From contig CATKAP010000212.1 of assembly GCA_949746255.1 (NCBI GenBank), forward strand, positions 1,689 through 65,688: a DNA stretch of 64,000 bases. Reading direction: 5' to 3'. Of the stretch, positions 2,431 through 61,531 are shown piece by piece. This DNA is from an uncultured bacterium. Lineage in GTDB: Bacteria > Bacillota > Clostridia > Christensenellales > Borkfalkiaceae. Position 1 is the stretch's first letter, and each line of letters starts with the position of its first letter. The position numbers and the translations under genes are program-made. The notes beneath the pieces are model-generated. The model did no database searches, was not told the DNA's origin, and was given only the letters and a program-made list of their open reading frames with translations.

Positions 2431-2459
2431 ATTTGCCTCCAAATAATATTATTGTTTGT

Positions 2460-2488
2460 ATTATATAAAACGATTTTTAAAATGGCAA
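2460..2488 (-). promoter_or_regulatory. Sigma-70-type promoter for the transglutaminase-like gene
   Basis: On the minus strand I read TTGCCA (2488-2483), a 17-bp spacer and TATAAT (2465-2460). This lies about 30 nt upstream of the ATG at 2430. Confidence 0.6.
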
Positions 2489-2640
2489 CCGAATTTTTAT
2501 ATAAAAGGTTCTAACACGCTTTTTAAACTATATTCGACTCAAAATAAGTTAATATTTAACAGATTTTATATTCCACATTATATATATCTAACAATTAATA
2601 GTTCAAATTAATTACAGCGCTGAAAAGGGTTGATTATACT

Positions 2641-24387: not shown

Positions 24388-24451
24388 TCTGCGCCGTATA
24401 CTGATTACCACATCACTTCACAATTATAAAAAACCGTGTATACGGCGCAGA
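24388..24451. repeat. 14-bp perfect inverted repeat (stem-loop) in the 5' leader of gene A
   Basis: TCTGCGCCGTATAC (24388-24401) and GTATACGGCGCAGA (24438-24451) are exact reverse complements separated by 36 nt. No U-tract follows on the minus strand. Confidence 0.8.
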
Positions 24452-24455
24452 AAAA

Positions 24456-24482
24456 GTACTCCTAATATTGTATTAGGTGTAC
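24456..24482. repeat. Left arm of the 27-nt inverted repeat flanking the gene-A promoter
   Basis: The arm GTACTCCTAATATTGTATTAGGTGTAC matches the reverse complement of 24625-24651 at 24/27 positions. The arm is itself nearly palindromic. Confidence 0.75.
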
Positions 24483-24494
24483 GTTTGTAAAATA

Positions 24495-24523
24495 ATTTTA
24501 CCGCGAATAATTTTTCAAGTCAA
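24495..24523 (-). promoter_or_regulatory. Sigma-70-type promoter directed at giant gene A
   Basis: On the minus strand I read TTGACT (24523-24518), a 17-bp spacer and TAAAAT (24500-24495). An A/T-rich tract lies upstream. The promoter sits inside the 142-bp segment bounded by the 27-nt inverted repeats. Confidence 0.6.
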
Positions 24524-24624
24524 GGGATTTTAGCAAATTTCTATGGAATATGTTGCATTATATGGAAAAATGGCAAAATAATTTCCATAAATAAAGCCCC
24601 GTATACGCCCAAATTGTAAAAATT

Positions 24625-24651
24625 ATACTCCTAATACAATATTCGGAGTAC
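24625..24651. repeat. Right arm of the 27-nt inverted repeat flanking the gene-A promoter
   Basis: The arm is ATACTCCTAATACAATATTCGGAGTAC. The asymmetric centre (CAA here, TTG in the left arm) shows that the two arms are in inverted orientation. Confidence 0.75.
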
Positions 24652-24784: not shown

Positions 24785-25720
24785 TTAAAACAACATTTTT
24801 CCCAGCTTGTTCATCATTGCCTTTTTATGTTCCTGCATAGAATGCACATACTTATTCAACGTTACGGTAGCCGACTTATGACCCAGAATTTCGGACAGCG
24901 TTTTAACGTCCATTCCGCACTCCAAAGCGCGGGTTGCAAATGTATGCCGCAAGCTGTGAAAACCTTTACGTTCGATATTAAGTCTTTTTAGCAAAAGCTG
25001 AAAACTGCGTTGATACGCCCGCACGTAGAGAGGTTTTCCGCTGTAAGAAGACACCACATAAGGAGGAATACCGCTCTTTTTCATAACTTTTAAAACGGTT
25101 ATCAACTGTTTGGGAACGGGCACGCATCTTTCCGAAGAGTCGGTTTTCGGCGAACAGGTTATCCTTGTAAAATTTCCGTTCCCGTCCTTTCCGTCGCAAC
25201 AGGTTTTTCTTACGTATATAAGTTCTCTACGCAAATCCACGTCGCTCCACTCCAAAGCGAGAAGCTCTCCTATTCTCAGACCCGTATAAAGGCATATAAG
25301 CACGCCGTACATTTTTTTCTTTTTTCCGCTTAAAATCGCCTGTTCTATTTTCTTCTGTTCGGCTTTTGTAAAGCAGGTAATTTGTTTTTCTTTAATTCTC
25401 GGGCGTTTTATGTTAGACGCGGTATATTCGGATATCTGCCCTATCGAATACGCGCATTTTAAAGAATTCTGGATTACGGCAATGTTTAAATTTACCGAAT
25501 TGGGTGCAAGCCCTTCACCCGTCTTTAAATTTCCGCTATAAGAAAGTTCGGTTATAAACCTCTGTAAAATAAGCGGTGTTATTTCCGAAAGTTCCATATC
25601 GCCCAGCTTTTCCGTCACATGACTTGCGACGATTTCGCGGTATCTTTGATACGTTTTTTGTTTGGAGGTCGGCTTGACATAATATTCAAGCCATTCGTTC
25701 AGCCATTCGTTGTACTTCAT
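24785..25720 (-). CDS. Tyrosine site-specific recombinase (phage-integrase family), 311 aa
   Basis: ATG 25720 has GGAGA 6 nt upstream. The catalytic signature is TGLRIGELLAL (Arg), HSLRHTFAT (His-x-x-Arg), LGHKS (His) and LNKYVH (Tyr). The N-terminus is a SAM-like core-binding region. Confidence 0.92.
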   Translation of the reverse strand: MKYNEWLNEWLEYYVKPTSKQKTYQRYREIVASHVTEKLGDMELSEITPLILQRFITELSYSGNLKTGEGLAPNSVNLNIAVIQNSLKCAYSIGQISEYTASNIKRPRIKEKQITCFTKAEQKKIEQAILSGKKKKMYGVLICLYTGLRIGELLALEWSDVDLRRELIYVRKTCCDGKDGNGNFTRITCSPKTDSSERCVPVPKQLITVLKVMKKSGIPPYVVSSYSGKPLYVRAYQRSFQLLLKRLNIERKGFHSLRHTFATRALECGMDVKTLSEILGHKSATVTLNKYVHSMQEHKKAMMNKLGKMLF

Positions 25721-36814: not shown

Positions 36815-38152
36815 TCAGTTGTTTTCCGATTCGACGGGAAGCAAAATATCCAACGTGAAAAGTCCGTTCTCTGCCGTAACGGTCATAACTCCTCCGTAAG
36901 AATTTACTATTCGGTTCATACTTTTCATTCCGAAGCCGTGATAATTTTTATCTTTGGTGGTTTCTGGCAAATCTCCCGAAAAAACCACGTCGCCGTCATA
37001 CGGGTTTTCAACGTGAATGGAACACATACCGCCTATTTGCGTAACTTTGAGCGCAATATGCCGCATATTTTCCTGCGGCAGCGCGGAAACGCTGTCAATG
37101 GCGTTGGAAAGCGCGTTGCCGAACAACGAATAAACTTCCATTTCGTCCATAAATTCCAATAATTTGCCGTTGACCACCATTGTTAGCTTTATGTTTTTAG
37201 ATTCGCATTGAAGTTTTTTTTCCGTTAGCAACGTATCCAAAACCGCGCTGCCCGTCTTAACGGTGGAGTCGTAAATCATTACGGCTTTTTCTATTTCGGA
37301 AATATACTTTCCCGACTTGTCCTCCCGTAATACCGCGAGCTGATGTTTCAAGTCATGGCATTTTTCGTTGATAATTTGTATATTTTCTTTAGTCATTAAA
37401 AATTGTTCGCGTTCCTGATGCAACAGTTCCTTTACGTCGAGATACTCTTTTGTAATTACGTCGTTTTTTGCGATGTTCAACTGAACGGCTATAATCAAGC
37501 CGCTGCAAAATACGGCGTACAAAGGTTCCGCTATCTTAGCAAATTCCGAACGGTCGGGGTCGTCGTTGGAAAGCCTCGAAAGACAAATAAATACCACTAC
37601 CACCAAAAGACATAAAATAACTTTATTTTTGTTATTGCCGTGGTAACATTCGTCGTCAAACTTCCTTTGCCGAAGCAAATAGAATAAAACAAGATAAACC
37701 GTAACCCTCGTCAATATCCATACCGCGGTATCCGTTACATAATTGTACGGTTCCGACAGCATAGCCGTTAAAGGAGCGAAAAGCGTGCCTATACTGTAAG
37801 CCAAATACTGTATAGCATATCCGGTGGACGCGCACACCAACACTACTATAAACGACTGATCGTAACTGAACCACACGCAAAATATCGTCATGCCGAAAAT
37901 TACGATATAATAAAATATTTTAAAAATAATTCCTTCCGTATCGGACGGTACGCCGTAATTGAAATGAGTTCCCGTTATTATGAAATACATCAGTTCAATC
38001 CAAACGGTTAAAAATATGCATACCGCCGCGCTGCCGAAAAACCGAAGGTAAAAATAATGCTTCCGTTTAAAAAATCTTGCGACAATAAATTCGGCGGTCA
38101 GGATTTCCGCCGCCATCAGCGGCGTCATTAACAGTGAAATAAAAGTTTCCAT
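36815..38152 (-). CDS. AgrC/ComD-like (HPK10, GHKL) sensor histidine kinase with a polytopic N-terminal sensor
   Basis: There are about six N-terminal TM helices. The H-box is NEKCHDLKHQL, the N-box is LFGNALSNAIDS and the G-box is YHGFGMKSM. The start overlaps the response regulator stop by 1 nt (TAATG). Confidence 0.88.
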   Translation of the reverse strand: METFISLLMTPLMAAEILTAEFIVARFFKRKHYFYLRFFGSAAVCIFLTVWIELMYFIITGTHFNYGVPSDTEGIIFKIFYYIVIFGMTIFCVWFSYDQSFIVVLVCASTGYAIQYLAYSIGTLFAPLTAMLSEPYNYVTDTAVWILTRVTVYLVLFYLLRQRKFDDECYHGNNKNKVILCLLVVVVFICLSRLSNDDPDRSEFAKIAEPLYAVFCSGLIIAVQLNIAKNDVITKEYLDVKELLHQEREQFLMTKENIQIINEKCHDLKHQLAVLREDKSGKYISEIEKAVMIYDSTVKTGSAVLDTLLTEKKLQCESKNIKLTMVVNGKLLEFMDEMEVYSLFGNALSNAIDSVSALPQENMRHIALKVTQIGGMCSIHVENPYDGDVVFSGDLPETTKDKNYHGFGMKSMNRIVNSYGGVMTVTAENGLFTLDILLPVESENN

Positions 38153-38859
38153 TATATGGTATCGCCTATATACTTAGCAAGTTCCGACATAAACTGTTTA
38201 CGTTTACCCTGACTTACGAAAAGCTCGTCTCCCGTGCTTAAAATAACTGTCTTGTTAACTTTTCTGACGTAAGCGAGATTAACGAGATAGCAACTGTTGC
38301 ACAGTGAAAAATAATATTTATCAAGTTCCTGCGTAACGCTTTTAAGCGTGCCGCGGGCAACGTAAACCTCCCCGCCCGCGTGGTAAATAACGTCGTGAGT
38401 TTTAACTTCAACGTAAGCTATATCCGAAACGTTTAACCGCGCAATTCCGTTTTTGGTTTTTACGTTTATAAATTCGCCGGGTTTTCTATGATTCAATTCT
38501 TTGCAAATCCTTTCAAGTTTCATTGCAAAGCCGTTATAATCCACAGGTTTTAAAATGAAATCGAAAGCGTTTACGGCATAACCTTCAACGGCGTATTGCG
38601 CAAGATTGGTCACAAAAACAATTAAAACGCGCGGGTCGATTTGTCTTATGCGAACGGCGGCTTCCATACCGTTCATTAAATTCATCTGAATATCCATGAA
38701 CATCACGTCGAAATCGGCGTGATAATTTTCTATCAGCGTATAGGCGTCGGAATATGAAAATATCTGGACGTTTTCGCCGCGCAAGTCGAAAAACTTTTGC
38801 ACGTAACTTTTTATCTTATCGGAAACTTCCTTTTCGTCTTCGAGAATACCGATTTTCAT
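38152..38859 (-). CDS. LytTR-family response regulator (REC + LytTR DNA-binding domain)
   Basis: ATG 38859 has GGAGG upstream. REC motifs are ILEDE, VMFMDIQM (phospho-Asp) and FILKP. The C-terminal LytTR-like region reads INVKTKNGIARLNVSDIAYVEV...YLVNLAYV. Confidence 0.9.
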   Translation of the reverse strand: MKIGILEDEKEVSDKIKSYVQKFFDLRGENVQIFSYSDAYTLIENYHADFDVMFMDIQMNLMNGMEAAVRIRQIDPRVLIVFVTNLAQYAVEGYAVNAFDFILKPVDYNGFAMKLERICKELNHRKPGEFINVKTKNGIARLNVSDIAYVEVKTHDVIYHAGGEVYVARGTLKSVTQELDKYYFSLCNSCYLVNLAYVRKVNKTVILSTGDELFVSQGKRKQFMSELAKYIGDTI

Positions 38860-54800: not shown

Positions 54801-57800
54801 CCCATAGGCGCAATGCGGAACTGTCTGTCGGAACCGGAAAGCGAATAGTTTTGGTCGGTTATAAACACCCTTACCACGTAGTTCGCCGCATTGACGGGTT
54901 TTTCGTCCAACCATTCGCCGAACATGCCGTCGCCGAGAACTTCCGCATATTTCACGGTAAAAGGTATTTCCGCGGAATTTGCGCCCAACAACGTAACTAC
55001 GGGCGCCTGCGCGCTGCCGCTGAACGTCCAAACAAACTGGTTGTTATTGTTTGCGTTGCCGGCAAATGCCGGAGTAACCGTCATTTTGACGATATCCATC
55101 TGACAAGAATAGTTATCGCCCAAAACATAGTTAACGCAATTTTCGGGAAGAGAAACTCTCGCCGTATAAATACCTACGTTAACGGGTTCGGAAGAAAGTT
55201 TTTTACCGTTGAGGTAATATTCTATAACGGGTTCTACGTTATCGCCCGAACGCAAGCCGTACAACCTTGCGCTTACCGAACGGTTGCTTCCGTTAAAGAT
55301 ATAAGAAACTTCGTTTACGGGCGCGTCGGTTTCGTCACGCCAGCCCGCGGTAATTATTAAAGGATTGATATAATAGGTTTGTTCTTCGTTGACGAATACG
55401 ATTCCGTCGTCGCCGTGGAACGGGCTGTCATCGGAAAATCTTACGTGCACTGTATATCTGCCCGCGTTTACAGGCACGCCCGAAAGTATCTGATCCGTGC
55501 CCGCAATTGTATAATAGGCTTCCAAACCAATATTACCGACAAGTTCGTTATCGTCTATGCCGTTAACGACGAATACCGGAGAGTGGCTTACCGCGTCGTA
55601 ATTCCAATAATACGCGCCGTCTTTAATTCCCGAAGAGCCGTCAAAATCCCATACGAACGAAAGCGTTCTTCTTAAAATTTCAAATTCCAGAACGCCGTTT
55701 TCATAATTTGCCGCAACGCTGTCGGCAATTTCCAAAACGCTCTTGCCTACGTTCTTTAAAGTTAAATCGTTTTTAAGCGCGACAGCCGTACCGGATACGG
55801 GGTTCATAGCGCGGAATTTGTATTCTTTACCTGTGTAATAAATAACCGTATCTTTAACGTCTTGCCACGTTGCGCCGTTATCCGTTGAATACTGCCATTC
55901 TAAGGTAACTTTTATAATTTCGAATATAAGCGTGGGGTTAGCGTAAATAACCGTTGCTCCCGCGGTGTTTTCCACGGTATAACCGTAACTTCCGATAGCC
56001 GAGAACTCAGAAGGCAAACTTACAGCGTCGCTGAGGCTGGAAGACGTGGGCGCGCTTATAACCACGGTGTTGTTATAACGTCCGCGCACCGTGTAGTCTG
56101 CGCCGATAAATGGCACGCTGAAATACGTTGTGTTAATATCGTGCCAGGTTGCGCCGCCGTCAGTGGAATATTCCCATATAAGAGTTCTGCGCTCCACGCT
56201 ATCAGCCGTACTCAACACGGCTTCTCCCGCAGAATTCTGAGTTATTCTGTATGCGGTATTGTCAGAGAAGAAGTAAGTTAAAGGACTTATACTGGGATTA
56301 TGCGTTTTATAACCCGTCGTAAAAGCTTTATTCAACATTGAAACATTGGTTATACCTATATATGTGGTATTACCGTCGCCGCGCAATTTTCCGATAATAT
56401 TAATAGGGGATCCTTCTGAAACATAGGTATTATTTGAATCTCCGTTCAAGGTGACGTTGCGCGCAATTATACCGCCCGCCAAATTCATACGTCCCGCGCC
56501 GGCAATACGGACACCGCCACCGGTAATCGCGCCGGATTTGTTTTCTATTACTCTTCCGCCGTACATAGTAAACGTACCGTCAACGTTTACGCCGGCGCCG
56601 CCGTGCACCTTTGCTATATTTTTGGAAATAGTACCGCCGTTCATCGTAAATTCACCGACAACGCCAACGCCGCCGCTCCATCTTTCCGCAACGTTTTCGG
56701 TAATAAGTCCGCCGTTCATGGTGCAGCTGGCAGTATTATCTATTACAATTGCACTGCCTGAATCATCGGTATAATTTCCTGTAATCAACCCGTCGTTGAA
56801 AACAAGCGATCCACTGTTGCTTATATATACGCCGCCGCCGAAAACTCTTTTGTTTGCCGCCTCGTCGTATCCTTCAATATGATTGTTGCTAATAGTGCCG
56901 TCCCATATTGTTCCGGTTGAACCGGATAAATGCAAGCCGCCGCCCGATTCCGCTTTGTTGCCGTCGATTTTGCCGCCTCTCATTTCAAAAGTGCCACCGC
57001 TTGAAACGCAAACGCCGCCGCCCGTTCTTGCGGTATTTTTTGAAATTTCACCGCCGCGCAGAGTAAGGTTTACGTTGTTGTAAACAAATATACCGCCGCC
57101 GTAATTTACCGTAGTGTTGCCGGAAATTTTACCGTCGTTTAAAATAACGGTACAATCCGAACGGTACATTTGGGTTACTTCGGCATATAAAGCGTAAAGC
57201 GCGCCGCCCGTGTTGCCCGACGTATTGTTAAGAAATTCGCCGTAATTTATTTCAAGCAAACCGTTGTTTATATAACCCGCGCCGCCGCTTGCTTCCGCGC
57301 TGTTATTGTTGAATTTACCTCCGTTTATAACGACTTCGGAGTGGTATATATAGAAAGCGCCGCCGTTTGTTCCCGCACTGTTTCCGGTAATTTCAATATC
57401 GCTGATTTCTACGTTGGACAAAGTACCGACATATATGCCGCCGCCGCGCGCACCCGCTTCGTTATCGCGGATTACGCCGCCGTCTATAACGGCGGAACCG
57501 TCTTTATCGGCGCCCATTAAATTGAAGAAATAAATTCCTCCGCCGTTTGTAGAAGCATAATTACGCGTAACTATGCCGTTGTCAATATAAAAACTTGCAC
57601 CGTCGTTAGCGCTAGGCGCAGACAAACTTCCGCCCTGTACGCAAATACCGCCGCCGTTGTCGGAGGAGTTTTCCTTTACCGTACCGCCGTACATATTCAT
57701 TTCCGCCTGGAAAACGGAAACTCCGCCGCCTACGCCCGAAGAAGTATTGCCGCTGAATTCGCCGCCGTACATATTAAATACGGAATTGGTGTTTATGTAA

Positions 57801-60562
57801 AATCCGCCGCCGTTATAAGCGGCGCCTCCGGAAACTTTACCCGAATACATTTTTACGTCCGATTGTAAAAAGTAACCGGCGCCGCCCCAACTTGACTCTC
57901 CGCTCAAACGGTTATTCAAAAACTGTCCGCCGTTTATAACGATTTCGGAATTATACGACGCGTTTATACCGCCGCCGCGCCTTACGGATTTATTATCCGA
58001 AATATAACCGCTGTTAAATGTAAATTTTGAAGTCAGCGCCGACGAGCTGGGCGTAGCCGAAACCGTAGGCGATTTTACAATGGTATCAAACGATTGCTGT
58101 CCGGTAACGAATATACCGCCGCCGCCCGAATAGCTTACGCTGCCGGTAGTTTCTTCCACGCTGTCAACGGAAATATTTCCCGTAATTCTACCGCCGGAAA
58201 GAACGAGTTCGCCTCCTCTTTCCACGCGAACGCCGCCGCCCGCGCCCTTATTGTAACCGCCCGTAATACTGCCCGATTCACCTGTGGTTCTGTCGACTAT
58301 TTCAAGTTTACCGCCGTCTATTACGATAACGTTACCCTTGGATTGAGGCACGGACAAATTACGGTCTATTTTTCTGCCGTTTAATCTTATTATTATATTT
58401 GCCTTTTCGGGCACTAAAAGTCTGCCGCTGTCAAAACCGACGCCCTCGCCGAAGGAGGTTCCGAAGGTTTCGTGCGGGCGCGCATACCAATTTTCGGGAA
58501 GAAGGAATTCAACGGGAGTAACGCCGTTGTTATCCAAACTTTCCTGAACCGCCGAATTCCAGAGTTCGGCTAAATCGAGCACGGGTTCTTCCCCCTCCGC
58601 TCTCGTCAAATTGAAGTGAATCGCCGGACGAACAGCCGCCGCCGTGCTGGTTCCAACGCCGTTTACCAAACTTCCCGCCGAATTAATTCTGTAGTTTCTT
58701 GCCGGATTTGCGCTGTAACCCGAACGCGTAGCGGAATAAAGGTTGTAAGTATTCCCGCGCATTGCGGCAGTCGCATTCCAAATTCCTCCGGCGCCTTCGT
58801 GCCCGCCCGTTTCCGAAACAGAAGGGAGCCAGATTAAGTCGTCCGACCAATCGGTATAACCAGGTTTGCCGGTATAATTCATATTTATTTCGCCGTTTAC
58901 ATACCAACCGCCTTGAGAAGGCACGCCGTAGGCTTCGTTGGGAGCAAGGAAAGAAAATGCGTTTGTTTCAACCGTGCTTTCGTTCGCCTGCCATGAAATT
59001 TGCGAAGGCGCGACAAAATAATTACCGAAATTCGAGGTAAACTTCTGCCACATATAAGAAGGCGCGCCGCTTGAAAGTTCGCTTGCGCCTTCGGTAGCCG
59101 CGTACTGCGTACCAGTAAGCTGATTTCTTGCGTAACTCGAAGAATACATGTTTGCGGGATAAGCGTAAGAACTCTTTTCAGAAGTCCATTTATTAAACTG
59201 AACGCCGTTCTGATTGTATGCGTTGGTAACGTCCGAAAGCCAAAGCGTGGCAATCACGTTGCCCGTTTTATCTTTGGATAAATAAGTTACGTACCAGGTA
59301 AGTCCGCCGAGAGTAACTTTTACGTCGTTACCGCCGTTGTTGGCGCGTATATCGGCGGAAGATAAAACTCCGTTTGCGGCTTTGCCCAAAGTTTCTTTAA
59401 GCGATTCGTAAGAATTGCCCGCCGTGCCTGCGTTAACCGCCGCATATAATGCGTTTAACGTGGTTTCGTTAACTTGTTTGGTGTTTCCGTCCACAAGCTC
59501 GCCGACGGCGTTTGCACTGTTGTATACACTTTTTAAATTGAGGTGGAACGCCGGACGAACGCTTCTTGACGAAGCAACGGTATCGACACCTACACCGACA
59601 CCGACTTCACCCGTAGAACTATTCACAAAATATACGCCCGTAGTTGTAGCCGTTCTCGTAGTTCTGGTCCAACAATCCGACGATCCCTGACGCATCGCCG
59701 TAGTTGTAGCCCATATACCGGACTTGCCGCCTATACTGCCCAACTCTGAAGCGGAGGGCACCCACAGTTGATCATATTTCCAATCTGCATAACCTTCTTT
59801 AGGGTTTGCCGTAAGATAATCCGAAGTTAATTGCGACTCGCCTACCCCCGTTGAGGGTACGCCGTAACATTCGTTGGGAGCGAATGCAGTCCAGCCGCCG
59901 TTATAAACCGCACCCGATTCCGTTTCCTGATACGCGACGTCCGCGGGGGTAACTATATATGCGCCGTAATTATCGCGCAGAGTTTGCCAAACGTTTGCGG
60001 CAGATCCCTGACTGAGATATCCGTTGCCCGCTTCCTTGACGTACGGCGTACCCATAAGCTGACTTCTTACAAAGCTTGAAGAATACATATTGGAAGGATA
60101 CGCAAAATCCGTGCCCTGTTGCGCCCATTTACTCCATTGCACGGAATTTTGTCCGTCGTCGGTTATGGTATCCGCAAGCCAGAGCGTTGCAATAACATTG
60201 TCGTTTCTGTCGCGGGAAACATACGCGATGTTCCAGGTAAGTCCGCCAAGCGAAATATTTGTTTGATTGGCGCCCGAAGCGAAATACGTTGAGTTACGAA
60301 CGTTTGTGCCGAGCGCGGTGCTCATCTGGTCGTATGTAGTAACGGTATTATTACCCGCTATTCTTCGCATAAGCGTTTGTACGTCGGTTGCGTTTGCGCG
60401 CGTAATACCCGCGGAACCGAAGTTGAGACGGGTGCCGCCGACAGAAGTTGCGTTTGCAGGAAAAGTTAAACTTGCCAACGCAATAATAAAACAGCATAAA
60501 AAACTCGCCAACAATGTAAATATTGCGGAAAGCCGAATTTTATTCGTCGAGTTTTTAATCAT
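48815..60562 (-). CDS. Giant cell-surface repeat protein D (3915 aa), putative adhesin with two head modules
   Basis: The ORF track starts at TTG 60598, inside a terminator U-tract. ATG 60562 has GAGGTG 6 nt upstream. After the signal (LSAIFTLLASFLCCFIIALASLTFPANA) come two head modules ending RPAFHLNL and RPAIHFNL. The adaptor is IIIRLNGRKIDRNL. About 650 aa of beta-helix-like repeats follow, then about 2500 aa of Ig/MBG-like modules. The C-terminal TM helix is WLLWVLIAAGALLLILIIIILVLA, followed by an acidic tail. Confidence 0.95.
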   Translation of the reverse strand: MIKNSTNKIRLSAIFTLLASFLCCFIIALASLTFPANATSVGGTRLNFGSAGITRANATDVQTLMRRIAGNNTVTTYDQMSTALGTNVRNSTYFASGANQTNISLGGLTWNIAYVSRDRNDNVIATLWLADTITDDGQNSVQWSKWAQQGTDFAYPSNMYSSSFVRSQLMGTPYVKEAGNGYLSQGSAANVWQTLRDNYGAYIVTPADVAYQETESGAVYNGGWTAFAPNECYGVPSTGVGESQLTSDYLTANPKEGYADWKYDQLWVPSASELGSIGGKSGIWATTTAMRQGSSDCWTRTTRTATTTGVYFVNSSTGEVGVGVGVDTVASSRSVRPAFHLNLKSVYNSANAVGELVDGNTKQVNETTLNALYAAVNAGTAGNSYESLKETLGKAANGVLSSADIRANNGGNDVKVTLGGLTWYVTYLSKDKTGNVIATLWLSDVTNAYNQNGVQFNKWTSEKSSYAYPANMYSSSYARNQLTGTQYAATEGASELSSGAPSYMWQKFTSNFGNYFVAPSQISWQANESTVETNAFSFLAPNEAYGVPSQGGWYVNGEINMNYTGKPGYTDWSDDLIWLPSVSETGGHEGAGGIWNATAAMRGNTYNLYSATRSGYSANPARNYRINSAGSLVNGVGTSTAAAVRPAIHFNLTRAEGEEPVLDLAELWNSAVQESLDNNGVTPVEFLLPENWYARPHETFGTSFGEGVGFDSGRLLVPEKANIIIRLNGRKIDRNLSVPQSKGNVIVIDGGKLEIVDRTTGESGSITGGYNKGAGGGVRVERGGELVLSGGRITGNISVDSVEETTGSVSYSGGGGIFVTGQQSFDTIVKSPTVSATPSSSALTSKFTFNSGYISDNKSVRRGGGINASYNSEIVINGGQFLNNRLSGESSWGGAGYFLQSDVKMYSGKVSGGAAYNGGGFYINTNSVFNMYGGEFSGNTSSGVGGGVSVFQAEMNMYGGTVKENSSDNGGGICVQGGSLSAPSANDGASFYIDNGIVTRNYASTNGGGIYFFNLMGADKDGSAVIDGGVIRDNEAGARGGGIYVGTLSNVEISDIEITGNSAGTNGGAFYIYHSEVVINGGKFNNNSAEASGGAGYINNGLLEINYGEFLNNTSGNTGGALYALYAEVTQMYRSDCTVILNDGKISGNTTVNYGGGIFVYNNVNLTLRGGEISKNTARTGGGVCVSSGGTFEMRGGKIDGNKAESGGGLHLSGSTGTIWDGTISNNHIEGYDEAANKRVFGGGVYISNSGSLVFNDGLITGNYTDDSGSAIVIDNTASCTMNGGLITENVAERWSGGVGVVGEFTMNGGTISKNIAKVHGGAGVNVDGTFTMYGGRVIENKSGAITGGGVRIAGAGRMNLAGGIIARNVTLNGDSNNTYVSEGSPINIIGKLRGDGNTTYIGITNVSMLNKAFTTGYKTHNPSISPLTYFFSDNTAYRITQNSAGEAVLSTADSVERRTLIWEYSTDGGATWHDINTTYFSVPFIGADYTVRGRYNNTVVISAPTSSSLSDAVSLPSEFSAIGSYGYTVENTAGATVIYANPTLIFEIIKVTLEWQYSTDNGATWQDVKDTVIYYTGKEYKFRAMNPVSGTAVALKNDLTLKNVGKSVLEIADSVAANYENGVLEFEILRRTLSFVWDFDGSSGIKDGAYYWNYDAVSHSPVFVVNGIDDNELVGNIGLEAYYTIAGTDQILSGVPVNAGRYTVHVRFSDDSPFHGDDGIVFVNEEQTYYINPLIITAGWRDETDAPVNEVSYIFNGSNRSVSARLYGLRSGDNVEPVIEYYLNGKKLSSEPVNVGIYTARVSLPENCVNYVLGDNYSCQMDIVKMTVTPAFAGNANNNNQFVWTFSGSAQAPVVTLLGANSAEIPFTVKYAEVLGDGMFGEWLDEKPVNAANYVVRVFITDQNYSLSGSDRQFRIAPMGVTVSWSGRTENVEGVNGTRGESGAIEWTYDGLGHYLTATARPVSQIIIDGSTVSLDLDVTGEIINEAGTENATASLKTEHSVNFYFVDESQCKQAYGINKFVITSVKWERTVDGNVIVNNSSDRPHYVYGTVTGANGPGFSAKATGINNTVITLDEVYYSAQFGDGENWAANSVNGYTAYADIPADIARNYKFADNISSENNHSQTFIIFFIDSITGDKTTITPTWIVYNDDSHTSYKTLAEFGGDKFTFTYDGTSHKIYAVYIESGAIVEELDVVYDGEGVDAGAYNARLLPSDKYDYSGKRDCAFEVLKRKIVITWTQGKFYYDKTEKKPVASVSYYVDGGEGEAVPAATVGLTVQGAVNAGPHTAMASVNANYEIVSGATFDFEIGRVSFGADDIDWEENATFVYDGNQHAPKATFKSPYDGDLTLKVIGSSSVGTHWAIAALDDSNLLHNNYYIRNPEDATCEFKIVRVTVTDVKWSYEENGDDITDNNPAVYTYNGKVQGPVAYFIDNEGVRHNLEVNGRMTNAGSYVVYVTADYDFGSKVPSMSFVINPRQLSVVWNNTLVDYTGSAQSPKVTFNDLLTGDPVTDDFAGQYTLSSYTNAGVYNAQLHLTNGNYTFVNGSGVSNTLIHEFTISKLVVSEAGGLGWSSTVSWVYDGAEHAPELGFKDGYTYLLGTDEVEFTFGYNGVTSYAGSHTVTAYILSAMWNGRDIAENFIIADAISSRGYTITSRPVTVDWDWTGAEKDGDVHFWYYNGTAQGPAAYMLDDDGNRITDGTNPISLTVFGKGINVLDQGYTVTVNAPENYVFVIDGDEATVATAHYYIRKANITVVWAADGVENEDYTIENGVFVWTYDGNEHAPKAYIYDADKPDNLGAQLMVTGGAVNAQTSAYTAYAAQNNGNYTIVSGASQQFIIRELPVYILWYGNNGSLTDFEWEYDANNTDGFKPDAYLAVKDENGDLVRLRVDGEYVKLTVTGAMSQVCQGDETYTATAVDLVPNYTFAADAQVEQEFKIVPMVLTSFTWNANGATAELVDGIWVYTFVYDGTLLQPLPQTSYPFEFVTTVKRVNSDGTLGDVVLASIDAGTYQLETAPQDGNYAVPAGSAVVRVVITPREAQVQWSGSEFVYNGLPQAPEAYYTDVNGEKIVLNVTVTGEHVNAGKSYSAKAEFKETGVTNYTLTSATKTYAITQREIPVSWTWSSEWNNKTVEYDGKEHAPVPVPSLGNAFADDVANGNLTITYSIALKGGATLSGLTAKNAGEYVVKNVLGGAKAGNYKLKNGEETFTISRKALTVTSDALTIPYGSPVPVYTATFSGFVAGEEQEFDLNNPAISANWISCVYTSRTVPGQYPIKLNKQWLENKLSNYSLTLQEVLLTVEAVSRTVIWQGKLENDFGAEYDGVAYKPTAFYYNDGSSTPIPLNVVYASYDETTGEYTRITDPSYAAIEAGTYYALAVDANGTVQLQNAGVMFRIHKRKITVNISSVDGDIFGKVYKRVYETGDEVVVSKYLVWNYADKQPVLRHDLEIELSCEFLFDEYGFAHAGKYMISGSWNSEDFGNNYEVIFAGEGEDADGNNVYGVYEIVKAEISINKRDDIMSEDEFFLGHVSVGNPWYIRLGETSEVDGLRKYTFIGHNGYQGADIVNVYYSDLVYNLTTETVPDPSDEAANAYQSVRRGISKVGRYAINYKIEIPNHETLYGTWRVLILPEDQVARIIFSKDFEIEYGKNVPENFATYLLDEGYITVETIGVDEYRHYATAYVSDGKGNRVNSFTGVGRYTIEVEINMPAGSTTEYHISYHAINQLDDTNVGRYVITPKKLVVEWGVEASYDYQAGVIHMPSPNVFGWVTANTLNIGAEQIKTKGTGTEYEYSAFRIMDNGQEVTILVAASGNFTDEGGHTLRMYVENSNYEISDTNDVTVVTIIDRTEIPPTLTEGLPGWLLWVLIAAGALLLILIIIILVLASRRNKGGLTIFGGYDEGFGDDTDEYSDDLGDGE
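56400..58360 (-). other. Beta-helix / Pmp-like repeat region of protein D (approximate limits)
   Basis: The repeats read GGGVRVERGGELVLSGGRITGN, GGGINASYNSEIVINGGQFLNN, GGGIYVGTLSNVEISDIEITGN, GGGVCVSSGGTFEMRGGKIDGN and so on. Confidence 0.6.
58608..60430 (-). other. Two tandem head modules of protein D (DUF6273-like; approximate limits)
   Basis: The module ends lie at about 59527-59550 and 58608-58632. The landmarks are LGGLTWN(I/V), TLWL(A/S)D, Q(W/F)(S/N)KW, YP(S/A)NMYSSS(F/Y)(V/A)R(S/N)QL and LW(V/L)PS.SE(L/T)G. Confidence 0.6.
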
Positions 60563-60584
60563 AATACACACCTCTACTAAGTGA

Positions 60585-60614
60585 ATTATAAAACGCAAAA
60601 ACGCGCGTCCGCAA
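60585..60614 (-). promoter_or_regulatory. Possible proximal promoter of gene D overlapping the proximal terminator
   Basis: On the minus strand I read TTGCGG (60614-60609), an 18-bp spacer and a perfect TATAAT (60590-60585). This would give a leader of about 16 nt containing the SD. The -35 is weak, and this is an alternative to the distal promoter. Confidence 0.35.
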
Positions 60615-60625
60615 AGGACGCGCGT
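60586..60625 (-). terminator. Intrinsic terminator 24 nt upstream of the gene D start codon (proximal of two)
   Basis: On the minus strand the 10-bp GC-rich stem is ACGCGCGTCC, loop TTTGC, then GGACGCGCGT (60625-60601). TTTTGCGTTTT follows. Confidence 0.75.
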
Positions 60626-60628
60626 AAC

Positions 60629-60656
60629 AAAAAAGCGGTACCCTTACGGATACCAC
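60629..60656 (-). terminator. Intrinsic terminator (distal of two) upstream of gene D
   Basis: On the minus strand the 9-bp stem is GTGGTATCC, loop GTAA, then GGGTACCGC (60656-60635, with two G-U pairs). TTTTTT (60634-60629) follows directly. Confidence 0.7.
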
Positions 60657-60827
60657 AAAATTTCAACGTTAAAACTACCCCGATAACAAGTTCGCCGAAA
60701 ATACACCTCGGCGATATTGCCTCAGTGTTAAGCCGCGAATTACACGGGAATAACCGATGTTTTCCGCCAGTAAAAAGAACGGATACTTACCGATTATAAA
60801 AATATTGTGAAATAATGTGGTAGTTAA

Positions 60828-60856
60828 AGTATATCACACGTTTTTTGATATTACAA
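60828..60856 (-). promoter_or_regulatory. Extended -10 promoter about 260 nt upstream of the gene D start
   Basis: On the minus strand I read TTGTAA (60856-60851), a 17-bp spacer whose last three bases are TGA, and TATACT (60833-60828). Together these form a TGnTATACT extended -10. Confidence 0.55.
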
Positions 60857-60945
60857 CCTTTTGCAATTAATTAAAATGAAAAATTACATGAAAATTTTTA
60901 CTTTTTTCCCTTTTTACGTCAAAATATGCGCCTTTTATCGTAAGA

Positions 60946-60979
60946 CAAGCCCCCGTAAAACACATTTTGCGGGGACTTG
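60946..60979 (-). terminator. Possible terminator or stem-loop downstream of the HAD gene
   Basis: This is a 15-bp stem with one mismatch and one G-U pair (CAAGCCCCCGTAAAA paired with TTTTGCGGGGACTTG) and a 4-nt loop. It lies 79 nt downstream of the stop at 61058. No clear U-tract follows on the minus strand. Confidence 0.35.
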
Positions 60980-61057
60980 TTAAAATAATTTATTACATTA
61001 TTCGGCAAACATTGCGTGCTTTTTAAACGGCATTTTAACTTACGTTTCGGTATATAA

Positions 61058-61531
61058 TTAAGTTTTATTCAAAATTGCCACGGCGTTAATAACGTGTTCT
61101 TCCTCCAGCCCCCTTCCCAAATTAGGGTTGGTTTTTACAAAGTTTACGGAAAGTTCCGCCCAGGCGTAACGGTAGTCGTCGATTATAACAAAACTTTCAA
61201 CGTCTTCTTCCGAGGATTGCAACCAGGCTTTAATTTCGTCCGGTCGGTCATAGTCTATACCCAAATCGGGGGTTTTATCGTAAACTTCTATCCCGAATTT
61301 TTCAAACACTTCGTTTATGTAAATTCCGTCCTCGTCGCACTTTCGGGTTTGCTTATCCCAATGCTTGCGCCAGGTGGAACTTAAAACAATCTTCGCGCCC
61401 GTTTCGTCAACTATCCTTTTTAAAAGCGGAAGCCGCGTTTCGTCGATATTCGTCTGTTCGTCCCAATTCCTTTTCCTGTCGTATATGCGGGAATTCAGCA
61501 CACCGTCTATATCCAAAAAAATTACTTTCAT
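61058..61531 (-). CDS. Small HAD-superfamily phosphatase-like protein (157 aa)
   Basis: ATG 61531 has AAGGAGG 5 nt upstream. HAD motif I is IFLDIDGVLN, motif II-like is VLSSTWR and a late acidic motif is FVIIDD. Confidence 0.8.
   Translation of the reverse strand: MKVIFLDIDGVLNSRIYDRKRNWDEQTNIDETRLPLLKRIVDETGAKIVLSSTWRKHWDKQTRKCDEDGIYINEVFEKFGIEVYDKTPDLGIDYDRPDEIKAWLQSSEEDVESFVIIDDYRYAWAELSVNFVKTNPNLGRGLEEEHVINAVAILNKT

What the first reader, a model, noticed from the sequence alone, without database searches (positions are those of the whole stretch)
60563..60856. Promoter followed by two tandem intrinsic terminators immediately upstream of gene D: a conditional leader or a stand-alone small RNA
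An extended -10 promoter (TTGTAA, 17 bp, TGATATACT; 60856-60828) is followed about 165 nt later by a canonical terminator (60656-60629; 9-bp stem plus U6). A second GC-rich terminator follows immediately (60625-60586). The gene D ATG (60562) lies only 24 nt beyond that, with its SD in between. This allows two readings. Either the ~260-nt leader is a termination/antitermination control element (riboswitch-like or protein-dependent), or the promoter and terminators define an independent ~170-235-nt ncRNA. In the second case gene D would use a weak proximal promoter overlapping the second terminator (TTGCGG, 18 bp, TATAAT; 60614-60585). The leader has no ATG-initiated ORF. I could not match it to any riboswitch class I know by eye, having checked for c-di-GMP-I, ykkC and other conserved cores.
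Basis: partly seen in the sequence, partly recalled or inferred. Interest (0 to 1): 0.62.

Follow-up and report, generated by a model that had tools for sequence, protein, structure and literature searches.

The report
Conserved terminator-gated leader of giant adhesin gene
The stretch in front of a 3,915-residue surface-protein gene is a real RNA control module (promoter, fixed 15-base RNA start, one or two terminators) kept in three uncultured mouse-gut species. It most likely decides whether transcription reaches the giant gene, and its RNA start matches hairpin loops in other giant-gene messages.

Summary
An extended -10 promoter (60856-60828) is followed by two strong intrinsic terminators (60656-60629 and 60625-60596), then the SD and ATG (60562) of gene D. 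No Rfam family matches.

The module is conserved in three species-level lineages (A, the window; B; C), always directly upstream of a homologous giant MBG-domain gene, although the upstream neighbours differ. The conservation is uneven:
- RNA 5' end ACCACAUUAUUUCA: 93-100% identical.
- Anti-seed plus terminator 1: 85-92%.
- Middle: 55-64%.
- After terminator 1: background. Terminator 2 has a different sequence in C and is absent in B.

The 5' end can pair with the 5' arm of terminator 1, with about the same energy as the terminator hairpin. No other promoter-like site lies before the ATG in B or C. RNA-library contigs bridge leader, terminators and start codon in two lineages.

I read it as a transcription-attenuation leader whose antiterminator strand is the RNA's own 5' end (about 0.45). 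A stand-alone or dual-function sRNA is the main rival (about 0.25). A metabolite riboswitch and a cwpV-type inverton are disfavoured. The 5' 15-16 nt are fully complementary to hairpin-presented GUGGUA loops in the UTRs of other giant genes, which suggests RNA cross-talk.

The parts
60889..60915 (-). Conserved upstream promoter element (AAAAAGGGAAAAAAGTAAAAATTTTCA). The core AAGG(G)nAAAAAAGTAA is shared by lineages A, B and C.
   Evidence: Alignments. The 100 nt upstream of +1 are 61-72% identical between lineages, against 43-59% after terminator 1. Its function is not tested; it may be a regulator binding site.
60828..60856 (-). Sigma-A-type promoter with extended -10: TTGTAA, 17 nt, TGATATACT.
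   Evidence: The same architecture occurs in B (TTGTAA-17-TGATATACT) and in C (TTGAAA-17-TGGTATACT). In B and C it is the only scan-passing sense-strand promoter between the upstream gene and the ATG.
60807..60821 (-). Invariant RNA 5' end ('seed') ACCACAUUAUUUCAC. The start site is inferred at A60821, 7 nt after the -10.
   Evidence: 15/15 identical between A and B, and 14/15 between each of them and C. The -10-to-motif spacing is the same in all three. The start site is inferred, not mapped.
60750..60797 (-). Lineage-A-specific inserted hairpin (AUAAUCGGU...AUCGGUUAU).
   Evidence: Absent from B and C as a 45-46-nt gap. It is a stem in the MFE fold. It is therefore dispensable for the shared function.
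60733..60747 (-). Small hairpin CCGUG-UAAUU-CGCGG.
   Evidence: The stem is kept with different loops and one changed pair in B and C. The support is weak.
60692..60704 (-). Invariant central block GUAUUUUCGGCGA.
   Evidence: Identical in all sequences of A, B and C. Its pairing partner is ambiguous.
60651..60666 (-). Anti-seed UUGAAAUUUUGUGGUA. It is complementary to the RNA 5' end and overlaps the 5' arm of terminator 1.
   Evidence: 13/16 reverse-complement match. Duplex energy with the seed is -14.8 kcal/mol in A, -14.2 in B and -10.6 in C, against -14.8 for the terminator 1 hairpin. UGUGGU/ACCACA is paired in all five sequences.
60629..60656 (-). Terminator 1: GUGGUAUCC-GUAA-GGGUACCGC plus U6.
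   Evidence: The stem is 100% identical in A, B and C, with only a loop change GUAA/GUUA. Conservation drops to background just after its U-tract.
60596..60625 (-). Terminator 2: ACGCGCGUCC-UUUGC-GGACGCGCGU plus U5.
   Evidence: -19.8 kcal/mol. Lineage C has a second terminator of unrelated sequence at the same place. Lineage B has none. Strain variants fall in the loop or just outside the stem.
60585..60590 (-).
   Evidence: Read from the sequence. The -35 TTGCGG matches 3/6 and fails the scan. B and C have only -10-like AATAAT/GATAAT without a -35. In the cDNA run X63 a deeper contig starts 17 nt before the C-lineage ATG, so a proximal 5' end is not excluded.
60560..60575 (-). SD (GAGG, 60574-60571) and ATG (60562-60560) of gene D. 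Gene D encodes a 3,915-aa signal-peptide, MBG-domain, C-terminally anchored surface protein.
   Evidence: PF18676 MBG_2.
24389..24450 (-). Hairpin in the 5' leader of the 6,373-aa giant gene. A 13-bp basal stem carries GUGAAGUGAUGUGGUA (24421-24406) at its apex. This apex is fully complementary (two G.U) to the gene D leader's 5' end.
   Evidence: Duplex energy is -21.0 kcal/mol. It is the only such site in the window apart from the antisense of the seed itself, against 0 in 300 random 64-kb sequences. The same apex, on unrelated basal stems, occurs in 3' UTRs of giant genes in L007, L012/L014 and L135.

Best explanation
The region is a cis-acting transcription-attenuation leader that forms one conserved module with the giant surface-protein operon (genes D and C).

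Transcription starts at the extended -10 promoter, inferred at A60821. The nascent RNA begins with the invariant ACCACAUUAUUUCA.

About 105-155 nt later the RNA contains an imperfect complement of that start (GAAAUUnUGUGGUA). This complement is also the 5' arm of terminator 1.
- If the 5' end pairs with it, it acts as an antiterminator: the terminator 1 hairpin cannot form and the polymerase continues towards the gene.
- If the 5' end is unavailable, terminator 1 forms and a 150-190-nt RNA is released.

The input that decides availability of the 5' end is unknown. It probably acts on the 15-nt 5' end rather than on a ligand pocket in the core. It could be a protein or another RNA.

Where present (lineages A and C), terminator 2 is an unconditional back-up that lowers basal read-through.

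Shown here: the elements exist, they are conserved selectively, the alternative pairings have about equal energy, and read-through molecules exist. Inferred: the start site, the competition between the two pairings, and the regulatory input.
For: 1. The module is conserved in three lineages and always lies directly upstream of, and co-oriented with, a homologous giant MBG gene. These are A (window, L001-L004), B (L005/L010) and C (L008/L009/L011/L137-L141). The upstream neighbours are unrelated: HAD/NUDIX, S24 peptidase and an SNF transporter.

2. Conservation is selective:
- 5' 15 nt: 93-100%.
- Anti-seed plus terminator 1: 85-92%.
- Core: 55-64%.
- 60 nt after terminator 1: 43-59%.
- First 600 nt of the CDS: 48-72%.

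3. The terminator 1 stem is invariant, while terminator 2 is free to change or to be lost. This is expected if the 5' arm must pair both with the invariant 5' end and with the 3' arm.

4. The seed/anti-seed duplex is -10.6 to -14.8 kcal/mol, against -14.8 for terminator 1. ACCACA/UGUGGU is pairable in all sequences.

5. In B and C the distal promoter is the only scan-passing sense promoter before the ATG.

6. RNA-library contigs bridge leader, terminator(s) and start codon:
- X63 (cDNA metatranscriptome) on lineage C has one contig covering L011 3126-2981 and 2735-2692 (joined, without L011's 245-nt insertion), and no coverage upstream of the promoter.
- X25 on lineage A covers 60727-60548.

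7. In 3 of 4 metatranscriptomes of study P25 the leader bin is the local depth maximum.

8. Within lineage C strains the intergenic region is 98.7-99.1% identical, against 96.7-97.0% for the upstream gene. The few changes avoid the stems.
Against: - Terminator 2 has no visible antiterminator, so a simple switch between the 5'-end pairing and terminator 1 does not explain how the polymerase passes it in A and C.
- The helices that matter do not vary, so there is no covariation proof. The RNAalifold covariation term is about 0.
- In X63 the CDS contig is deeper (10.8) than the bridging leader contig (2.3) and starts 17 nt before the ATG. That fits a proximal start or a processing site.
- Repeat elements of 240-400 nt sit between the terminator and the gene in B and in L011. 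This is easier to tolerate if the gene has its own promoter.
- Logan contig depths are crude, and some 'RNA' runs clearly contain DNA.
- The start site is not mapped.
Confidence: 0.45

Rival explanations
1. It is a stand-alone, or dual-function, trans-acting small RNA. The promoter and terminator 1, with terminator 2 as a fail-safe, define a 150-190-nt sRNA. Its single-stranded 5'-terminal seed ACCACAUUAUUUCAC base-pairs with GUGGUA-loop hairpins in UTRs of other giant surface-protein mRNAs. Gene D is then driven by a weak proximal promoter or by leak-through.
For: - The conservation pattern is that of a typical sRNA: invariant 5' end and terminator with a variable body.
- Terminators are in tandem in A and C.
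- In the folded terminated RNA the first 11 nt or so are free in C and largely free in A.
- There is perfect 15-16-nt complementarity (-18 to -21 kcal/mol) to hairpin apices in the gene A 5' leader and in 3' UTRs of giant genes in L007, L012/L014 and L135. Random 64-kb sequences gave 0 such sites in 300 trials.
- Repeat insertions between the terminator and the gene are tolerated.
- In X63 the CDS contig is deeper than the leader contig and starts at -17.
Against: - No scan-passing proximal promoter exists in B or C.
- Bridging RNA contigs exist.
- I found one copy per genome, always glued to a giant gene.
- No discrete, highly abundant small transcript is seen in the few RNA data sets.
Confidence: 0.25
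2. It is a loading site for factor-dependent processive antitermination, of the LoaP/dfn-leader, phage Q/PR'-tR' or EAR/put type. A protein or the leader RNA itself modifies the polymerase just after the promoter, so that it ignores both leader terminators and completes the 22-kb operon. Unmodified polymerase stops and releases a short RNA.
For: - It explains tandem, unconditional-looking terminators behind a single promoter.
- It explains the invariant promoter-proximal transcribed sequence.
- It fits the very long operon.
- The dfn leader of Bacillus velezensis has the same logic: an RNA hairpin plus an intrinsic terminator in the leader of an unusually long operon (PMC12691694).
Against: - No NusG/LoaP-like or Q-like gene was found among the eight small neighbouring ORFs scanned. 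The neighbours are not conserved between lineages.
- The leader has no UNCG hairpin like the dfn element.
- No strong terminators lie inside genes D and C that would need processivity. The scan found 26 sites against 27.9 expected, and the two leader terminators are the best.
- There is no Rfam EAR or other hit.
Confidence: 0.15
3. It is a metabolite-binding riboswitch, an ON switch of the pbuE type.
For: The closing helix shares a strand with the terminator. The leader is strongly structured (z = -5.1).
Against: - The enclosed core is the least conserved part (55-64%).
- The core carries a 46-nt lineage-specific insertion and shows no significant covariation.
- No Rfam family matches, even at E = 10.
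- The distribution is very narrow: 2 hits among 185,579 species genomes for the terminator 1 motif.
Confidence: 0.07
4. It is a cwpV-type invertible DNA switch. The two imperfect inverted repeats (60807-60822 and 60651-60666) would be recombinase sites flanking a promoter-less invertible segment that sets terminator formation.
For: - Imperfect inverted repeats flank about 140 bp between the promoter and the ORF of a big surface protein, as at cwpV (PMC2784873).
- The same genome demonstrably uses an inverton at the other giant gene.
Against: - All assemblies of all three lineages have the same orientation.
- Contigs of eight metagenome runs (X1, X5, X6, X7, X12, X14, X15 and X18) lie on the region with no strand-change joint; those of X1, X5, X6 and X7 cross it whole.
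- The positive control, inverton 24478-24629, is seen inverted in X5 and breaks contigs in X1.
- Inversion would regenerate the same terminator, so it would not switch anything.
Confidence: 0.03

Closest known systems
Terminator/antiterminator attenuation leaders of Firmicutes, for example the pbuE (ydhL) adenine ON-riboswitch expression platform (recalled from general knowledge)
   Same: - A promoter is followed by a structured leader and an intrinsic terminator in front of the regulated gene.
- One strand of the closing helix is also the 5' arm of the terminator, so the two folds exclude each other.
- The two folds have similar energies.
   Different: - The antiterminator strand here is the extreme 5' end of the RNA.
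- The enclosed core is poorly conserved, so a ligand pocket is unlikely.
- A second, apparently unconditional terminator follows in two of the three lineages.
- It is not a member of any Rfam family.
Antisense-RNA-mediated transcription attenuation of plasmids pT181 and pIP501 (countertranscript binding to the nascent leader forces terminator formation; recalled from general knowledge)
   Same: - A short 5' segment of the nascent leader must pair internally to prevent a downstream terminator.
- A complementary RNA presented in a hairpin loop could capture that segment.
- The hairpin-loop complements exist here, with -18 to -21 kcal/mol against -11 to -15 for the internal pairing.
   Different: - The candidate captors are UTR hairpins of paralogous giant-gene mRNAs encoded elsewhere, not a countertranscript from the same locus.
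- Nothing about the interaction is tested.
- The setting is a chromosomal surface-protein gene rather than plasmid copy control.
LoaP-dependent dfn/mln leaders of Bacillus velezensis (PMC12691694)
   Same: The leader of an unusually long operon carries a conserved RNA element plus an intrinsic terminator, and read-through is conditional.
   Different: - There is no UNCG hairpin.
- No NusG paralogue was found among the eight neighbouring ORFs scanned.
- There are no strong intragenic terminators.
cwpV genetic switch of Clostridioides difficile (PMC2784873)
   Same: - It controls a large surface protein.
- The promoter lies upstream of imperfect inverted repeats.
- An intrinsic terminator in the leader decides expression.
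   Different: - No DNA inversion is detectable here, although the neighbouring fimS-like inverton is detected with the same data.
- The repeats here are better read as RNA pairing partners.
Leader- or riboswitch-derived trans-acting sRNAs (for example SreA/SreB of Listeria; recalled from general knowledge)
   Same: A prematurely terminated leader could double as a base-pairing sRNA.
   Different: There is no ligand-binding domain, and the trans targets are only predicted.

Membership tests
Any Rfam 15 family (riboswitches, T-box, EAR, ANTAR targets, known sRNAs) | A covariance-model score at or above the family's gathering threshold. | tested here: not met
   There were 0 hits at gathering thresholds in the 64-kb window and in L005, L008, L012, L135 and L007. 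At E up to 10 on 60400-61100 there were only terminator-driven chance hits far below threshold: ncS025 at 21.6 bits against 46, and FopS at 19.3 against 56.
Intrinsic-terminator attenuation leader (generic class) | A promoter followed by an intrinsic terminator upstream of, and co-oriented with, the regulated ORF. | tested here: met
   in three lineages.
Intrinsic-terminator attenuation leader (generic class) | A mutually exclusive antiterminator pairing that involves one arm of the terminator. | tested here: inconclusive
   The 5'-end/anti-seed pairing is present in all sequences and has about the same energy as terminator 1. All positions are invariant, so no covariation is available, and there is no functional test.
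Intrinsic-terminator attenuation leader (generic class) | Transcripts that both stop at the terminator and read through it. | tested here: inconclusive
   Read-through contigs occur in X25 and X63. Terminated 3' ends cannot be seen in Logan contigs. Term-seq is needed.
Metabolite riboswitch | A conserved aptamer core with covarying helices across lineages. | tested here: not met
   The core is 55-64% identical and carries a 46-nt lineage-specific insertion. The covariation term is 0.16 kcal/mol.
cwpV/flgB-type invertible leader switch | Both orientations of the segment between the inverted repeats occur in DNA. | tested here: not met
   Only one orientation is seen in all assemblies and in eight metagenome runs. 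The control inverton at 24478-24629 was detected inverted in X5. Rare variants are dropped by contigs, so a low-frequency flip is not excluded.
LoaP-type processive antitermination leader | A UNCG-tetraloop hairpin in the leader and a NusG paralogue gene nearby. | tested here: not met
   None of the predicted leader hairpins has a UNCG tetraloop. The eight neighbouring ORFs scanned contain no NusG-like domain.
Trans-acting base-pairing sRNA | A discrete, stable small transcript with its own promoter and terminator. | not testable with these tools
   A promoter and terminators are present. Transcript ends and abundance are not resolvable from Logan contigs.
Trans-acting base-pairing sRNA | A conserved single-stranded seed with complementary sites in target mRNAs of the same genome. 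| tested here: met
   The seed is invariant. A 16/16 complement (two G.U) lies in the gene A 5' leader of the same window, and 0 of 300 random windows contain one. The interaction itself is untested.

The most novel reading that the evidence does not exclude
The giant surface-protein genes of these gut Clostridia may be wired together by an RNA-RNA network.

The invariant 5' end of the gene D leader is the complement of a GUGGUA-loop hairpin. That hairpin is carried in the 5' leader of the phase-variable 6,373-aa gene in the same genome, and in the 3' UTRs of paralogous giant genes in related species.

Two directions are possible:
- The other gene's mRNA captures the nascent gene D leader's 5' end. 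This removes the antiterminator and forces termination, by pT181-like attenuation acting in trans, so that only one giant adhesin is made at a time.
- The terminated leader acts as an sRNA on those mRNAs.

Either way, a DNA inverton at one gene would be coupled to an RNA switch at another.
Probability: 0.2. Interest if true: 0.8.

Novelty: new member of a known kind. Interest (0 to 1): 0.48.

Why it matters
Giant adhesin-like proteins take up a large share of these gut genomes (two thirds of this window), and how their expression is controlled is largely unknown.

This work shows that one of them has a selectively conserved RNA gate that matches no described family. It sits next to a paralogue controlled by a DNA inverton.

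If the complementarity between the gate's 5' end and the hairpin loops in paralogous messages is functional, it would be an RNA-level mechanism for hierarchical or mutually exclusive expression of surface proteins. That would parallel the UpxY/UpxZ cross-control of Bacteroides capsules, but be mechanistically different.

If it is not functional, this is simply one more lineage-restricted attenuator or sRNA.

Tried and rejected
- **Rfam.** The whole window at gathering thresholds, and the region at E up to 10, gave nothing. Five related loci also gave nothing.
- **Paralogous leaders inside the window.** BLAST found none.
- **Leader peptide.** No conserved ORF exists, and A has no start codon.
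- **T-box.** GGGUACCGC loosely resembles the T-box sequence, but there is no T-box hit even at E = 10. Rejected.
- **boxA.** CGTTCTTTTTAC in the A-specific hairpin looks boxA-like, but it lies in the insertion that B and C lack. Rejected as a shared feature.
- **Inverton.** Rejected.
- **Collection scans.**
  - Genome contigs with the terminator 1 motif returned only lineages B and C.
  - Metagenome contigs with the central block plus terminator arm returned 0 hits.
  - The 16-mer seed alone gave at least 120 unrelated chance hits, so that scan was wasted.
- **DNA runs listed as possible RNA.** Runs X49-X52, X54 and X58, listed as possible RNA, behave like DNA and were not used as RNA evidence.
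- **A second seed.** I searched for matching copies of the central block (both strands) in other giant-gene loci. Only weak 1-2-mismatch hits scattered in coding sequence turned up.
Full report
**1. Observation**

On the minus strand the region reads as follows:
- An extended -10 promoter, TTGTAA-17-TGATATACT (60856-60828).
- About 165 nt of ORF-free sequence.
- Terminator 1, GTGGTATCC-GTAA-GGGTACCGC plus T6 (60656-60629).
- Terminator 2, ACGCGCGTCC-TTTGC-GGACGCGCGT plus T5 (60625-60596).
- GAGG, then the ATG of a 3,915-aa protein.

The two terminators fold at -14.8 and -19.8 kcal/mol. They are the two best terminator-like sites in a 20-kb scan of genes C and D. That loose scan as a whole shows no enrichment, with 26 sites against 27.9 expected. 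The leader folds much better than shuffles (z = -5.1).

**2. Not a known RNA**

Rfam 15 gives no hit at gathering thresholds in the window. At E up to 10 it gives only terminator-driven chance matches. Related loci are also empty.

**3. Relatives**

The window belongs to an uncultured mouse-gut bacterium. Identical leaders occur in three assemblies (L001-L003). An identical leader also occurs in L004, a strain whose gene D N-terminal region is 96% identical in protein.

Homologues of the N-terminus of gene D led to two further lineages with the same module:
- Lineage B: L005, and L010 titled 'uncultured Eubacteriales bacterium iMGMC-890'. The protein N-terminus is 68% identical.
- Lineage C: L008/L009, L011 titled 'uncultured Christensenella sp. 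MGBC104819', and strains L137-L141. The protein is 35% identical.

A scan of 185,579 species genomes with the terminator 1 motif found only B and C, one copy each. JGI metagenomes gave nothing useful. The element is therefore restricted to a narrow clade.

In all three lineages it lies directly upstream of, and co-oriented with, the giant gene. The upstream genes differ:
- HAD/NUDIX in A.
- S24 peptidase in B.
- SNF transporter in C.

More distant giant-gene homologues (L006, L007, L012-L014, L135) do not have it. They carry promoters flanked by inverted repeats instead.

**4. What is conserved**

Segment identities between lineages:

| Segment | Identity |
|---|---|
| 100 nt upstream of +1 | 61-72% |
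| First 15 transcribed nt | 93-100% |
| Core | 55-64%, with a 46-nt hairpin present only in A |
| 40 nt of anti-seed plus terminator 1 | 85-92% |
| 60 nt after terminator 1 | 43-59% |
| First 600 nt of the CDS | 48-72% |

A 13-nt block, GUAUUUUCGGCGA, is invariant inside the core. The terminator 1 stem is identical in all lineages. Terminator 2 has a wholly different sequence in C and is absent in B.

The -10 box is followed by 6 nt and then ACCACA in all three lineages. I therefore infer that the RNA starts with ACCACAUUAUUUCA.

No ORF is conserved. RNAalifold finds terminator 1 plus a core fold with essentially no covariation signal.

Within lineage C strains the 318-nt intergenic region is 98.7-99.1% identical, against 96.7-97.0% for the upstream gene. 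The few substitutions avoid the stems.

**5. The key structural point**

The invariant 5' end is complementary to GAAAUUnUGUGGUA, which overlaps the 5' arm of terminator 1.
- The duplex is worth -10.6 to -14.8 kcal/mol.
- The terminator hairpin is worth -14.8 kcal/mol.

This gives a three-way constraint: the 5' end pairs with the 5' arm, and the 5' arm pairs with the 3' arm. It explains why terminator 1 is frozen while terminator 2 drifts. It is also the classical geometry of an antiterminator/terminator choice.

Because the core is the least conserved part, a metabolite aptamer is unlikely. Whatever sets the switch probably acts on the 15-nt 5' end.

**6. Is it DNA inversion?**

The two complementary segments could also be read as inverted repeats of a cwpV-like switch (PMC2784873). 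I tested this with metagenome contigs.
- The other giant gene's promoter segment (24478-24629), next to a tyrosine recombinase at 24785-25720, is found inverted in run X5 and breaks contigs in X1. This agrees with earlier finding e1-3995641.
- In X1, X5, X6 and X7 contigs cross the gene D leader collinearly. In X12, X14, X15 and X18 every contig on it is collinear.
- All assemblies of all three lineages share one orientation.
- Inversion would also regenerate the same terminator.

I reject the inverton reading.

**7. Transcripts**

Only Logan contigs were available.
- **X63**, a cDNA metatranscriptome, on lineage C: one contig covers L011 3126-2981 and 2735-2692. That is from +41 of the leader through both terminators to the start codon (the strain lacks L011's 245-nt insertion). 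Depth is 2.3. There is no coverage upstream of the promoter. A second contig covers L011 2472-2709; its upstream (mRNA 5') end is at 2709, 17 nt before the ATG, with depth 10.8.
- **X25**, flagged 'RNA?', on lineage A: contigs cover 60727-60548 (depth 7.9) and 60520-60336 (depth 4.6). Only one other small contig lies in 20 kb.
- **Study P25**: in three of four metatranscriptomes the leader bin is the local depth maximum, but upstream DNA-like coverage is also present.

So the leader is transcribed, and molecules exist that read through both terminators into the gene. The proportions and the transcript ends cannot be resolved.

**8. Promoters near the gene**

In B and C the distal promoter is the only scan-passing sense promoter before the ATG. 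A has a TATAAT with a poor -35.

This, together with points 3, 5 and 7, makes me favour a cis-acting attenuation leader (0.45).

Evidence on the other side keeps a stand-alone or dual-function sRNA alive (0.25):
- Tandem terminators.
- A conservation pattern like that of an sRNA.
- The deeper CDS contig in X63.
- Tolerated repeat insertions between the terminator and the gene in B and in L011.

A factor-dependent processive antitermination system of the LoaP/Q/EAR kind would explain the passage of two terminators (PMC12691694). It lacks any supporting gene or motif here, so I give it 0.15.

**9. An unexpected link**

The exact complement of the leader's 5' end occurs on the sense strand of other giant-gene transcripts:
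- GUGAAGUGAUGUGGUA in the 5' leader of the 6,373-aa gene of this window (24421-24406). It matches 16/16 with two G.U.
- GUGAAAUAAUGUGGU, with minor variants, in the 3' UTRs of giant genes in L007, L012/L014 and twice in L135.

In every case it sits at the apex of a long hairpin whose basal stem is made of unrelated sequence. In the gene A leader, L012/L014 and L007 the apical hexaloop GUGGUA/G is closed by an A-U-rich stem, with one compensatory A:U to G:C change in gene A. In L135 the loop is less well defined.

Predicted duplexes with the gene D 5' end are -18 to -21 kcal/mol. That is stronger than the internal pairing.

A fully pairable 15-mer site is not expected by chance. None occurred in 300 random 64-kb sequences, and the analytic expectation is about 0.002.

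This points either to a shared protein or DNA site, or, as I think more likely, to RNA-RNA contacts between the gene D leader and other giant-gene messages. Two forms are possible:
- Capture of the nascent 5' end, forcing termination, in the manner of pT181/pIP501.
- sRNA action of the terminated leader.

I give this network reading 0.2.

**10. Verdict**

This is a real, selectively conserved, previously unclassified leader RNA module that gates a giant adhesin operon by intrinsic termination. Its kind is known (an attenuator, possibly leader-derived sRNA). Its family is new and lineage-restricted, and it has a suggestive but untested link to paralogous genes.

Noticed in passing
window 24453-24651 (inverted segment 24478-24629); recombinase gene 24785-25720: The promoter of the 6,373-aa giant gene is flanked by about 27-bp inverted repeats (GTACWCC..AATA..GGAGTAC) next to a tyrosine recombinase. 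The 152-bp segment is inverted in metagenome run X5, and contigs break at the repeats in X1. This is a fimS-like inverton and agrees with earlier finding e1-3995641.
   Followed up: yes
L012 2177-2210 and 2322-2360; L014 1478-1512 and 1620-1655; L135 about 1755-1795 and 1912-1945; L006 about 400-430; L007 about 2388-2440: Other giant-gene homologues carry pairs of partly palindromic repeats (GTGTACAyCTAATA..TATTAGGTGTAC plus a T-run). At least in L012 and L014 these bracket the promoter in inverted orientation. They are probably the same kind of invertible promoter as at window 24478-24629. I did not test them for inversion.
   Followed up: partly
window 24389-24450; L012 10990-11075; L014 9985-10065; L007 11535-11640; L135 1528-1625 and 8556-8655: A recurrent long hairpin in 5' or 3' UTRs of giant genes. 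The basal stems are unrelated, but the apex is conserved: (G/A)UGAAAUAAU-GUGGUA/G-AUUAU. It matches no Rfam family. It is complementary to the gene D leader's 5' end.
   Followed up: partly
L008/L137/L141 CDS nt 1200-4000; window 56560-59360 compared with L004: There is a hypervariable block inside the giant genes. Nucleotide identity between strains of one species is 67-75% there, against 97-98% in the flanking CDS and neighbouring genes. This suggests cassette exchange or diversifying selection of an exposed region.
   Followed up: partly
L011 2742-2980; L005 2650-2960 and 2060-2290: High-copy REP/MITE-like palindromic repeats (for example CCCCGTCATTGCGAG..AGCGAAGCAATCC and GTCACCCTGAGC) are inserted between the leader terminator and the giant gene. 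Their depth in metagenomes is 10-40 times that of the flanks, and some strains lack the insertion.
   Followed up: partly
L007 1-1700; L012 1700-2100; L014 1244-1400: A diversity-generating retroelement cassette lies just upstream of some giant-gene homologues. It comprises an RVT_1 reverse transcriptase, bAvd, and a template-repeat-like sequence ending in ...AVRP. A GC-rich hairpin sits right after the giant gene's stop codon in L012.
   Followed up: no
window 36815-38859; L014 10191-12268; L008 2185-2225: An AgrC-like kinase and LytTR regulator pair follows the giant genes both in this window and in L014. In lineage C the gene D-type promoter is preceded by two AGGGTAAAAAA(G/T)(T/C)AA direct repeats 22 bp apart, which is LytTR-like spacing. 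This may be the promoter's regulator. Not tested.
   Followed up: no
window 60100-61300 in run X18: Lineages A, B and C of the leader co-occur in single mouse-gut samples. X18 holds contigs of all three, and X6 holds A plus C at ten times the depth. The three species therefore share a habitat.
   Followed up: no
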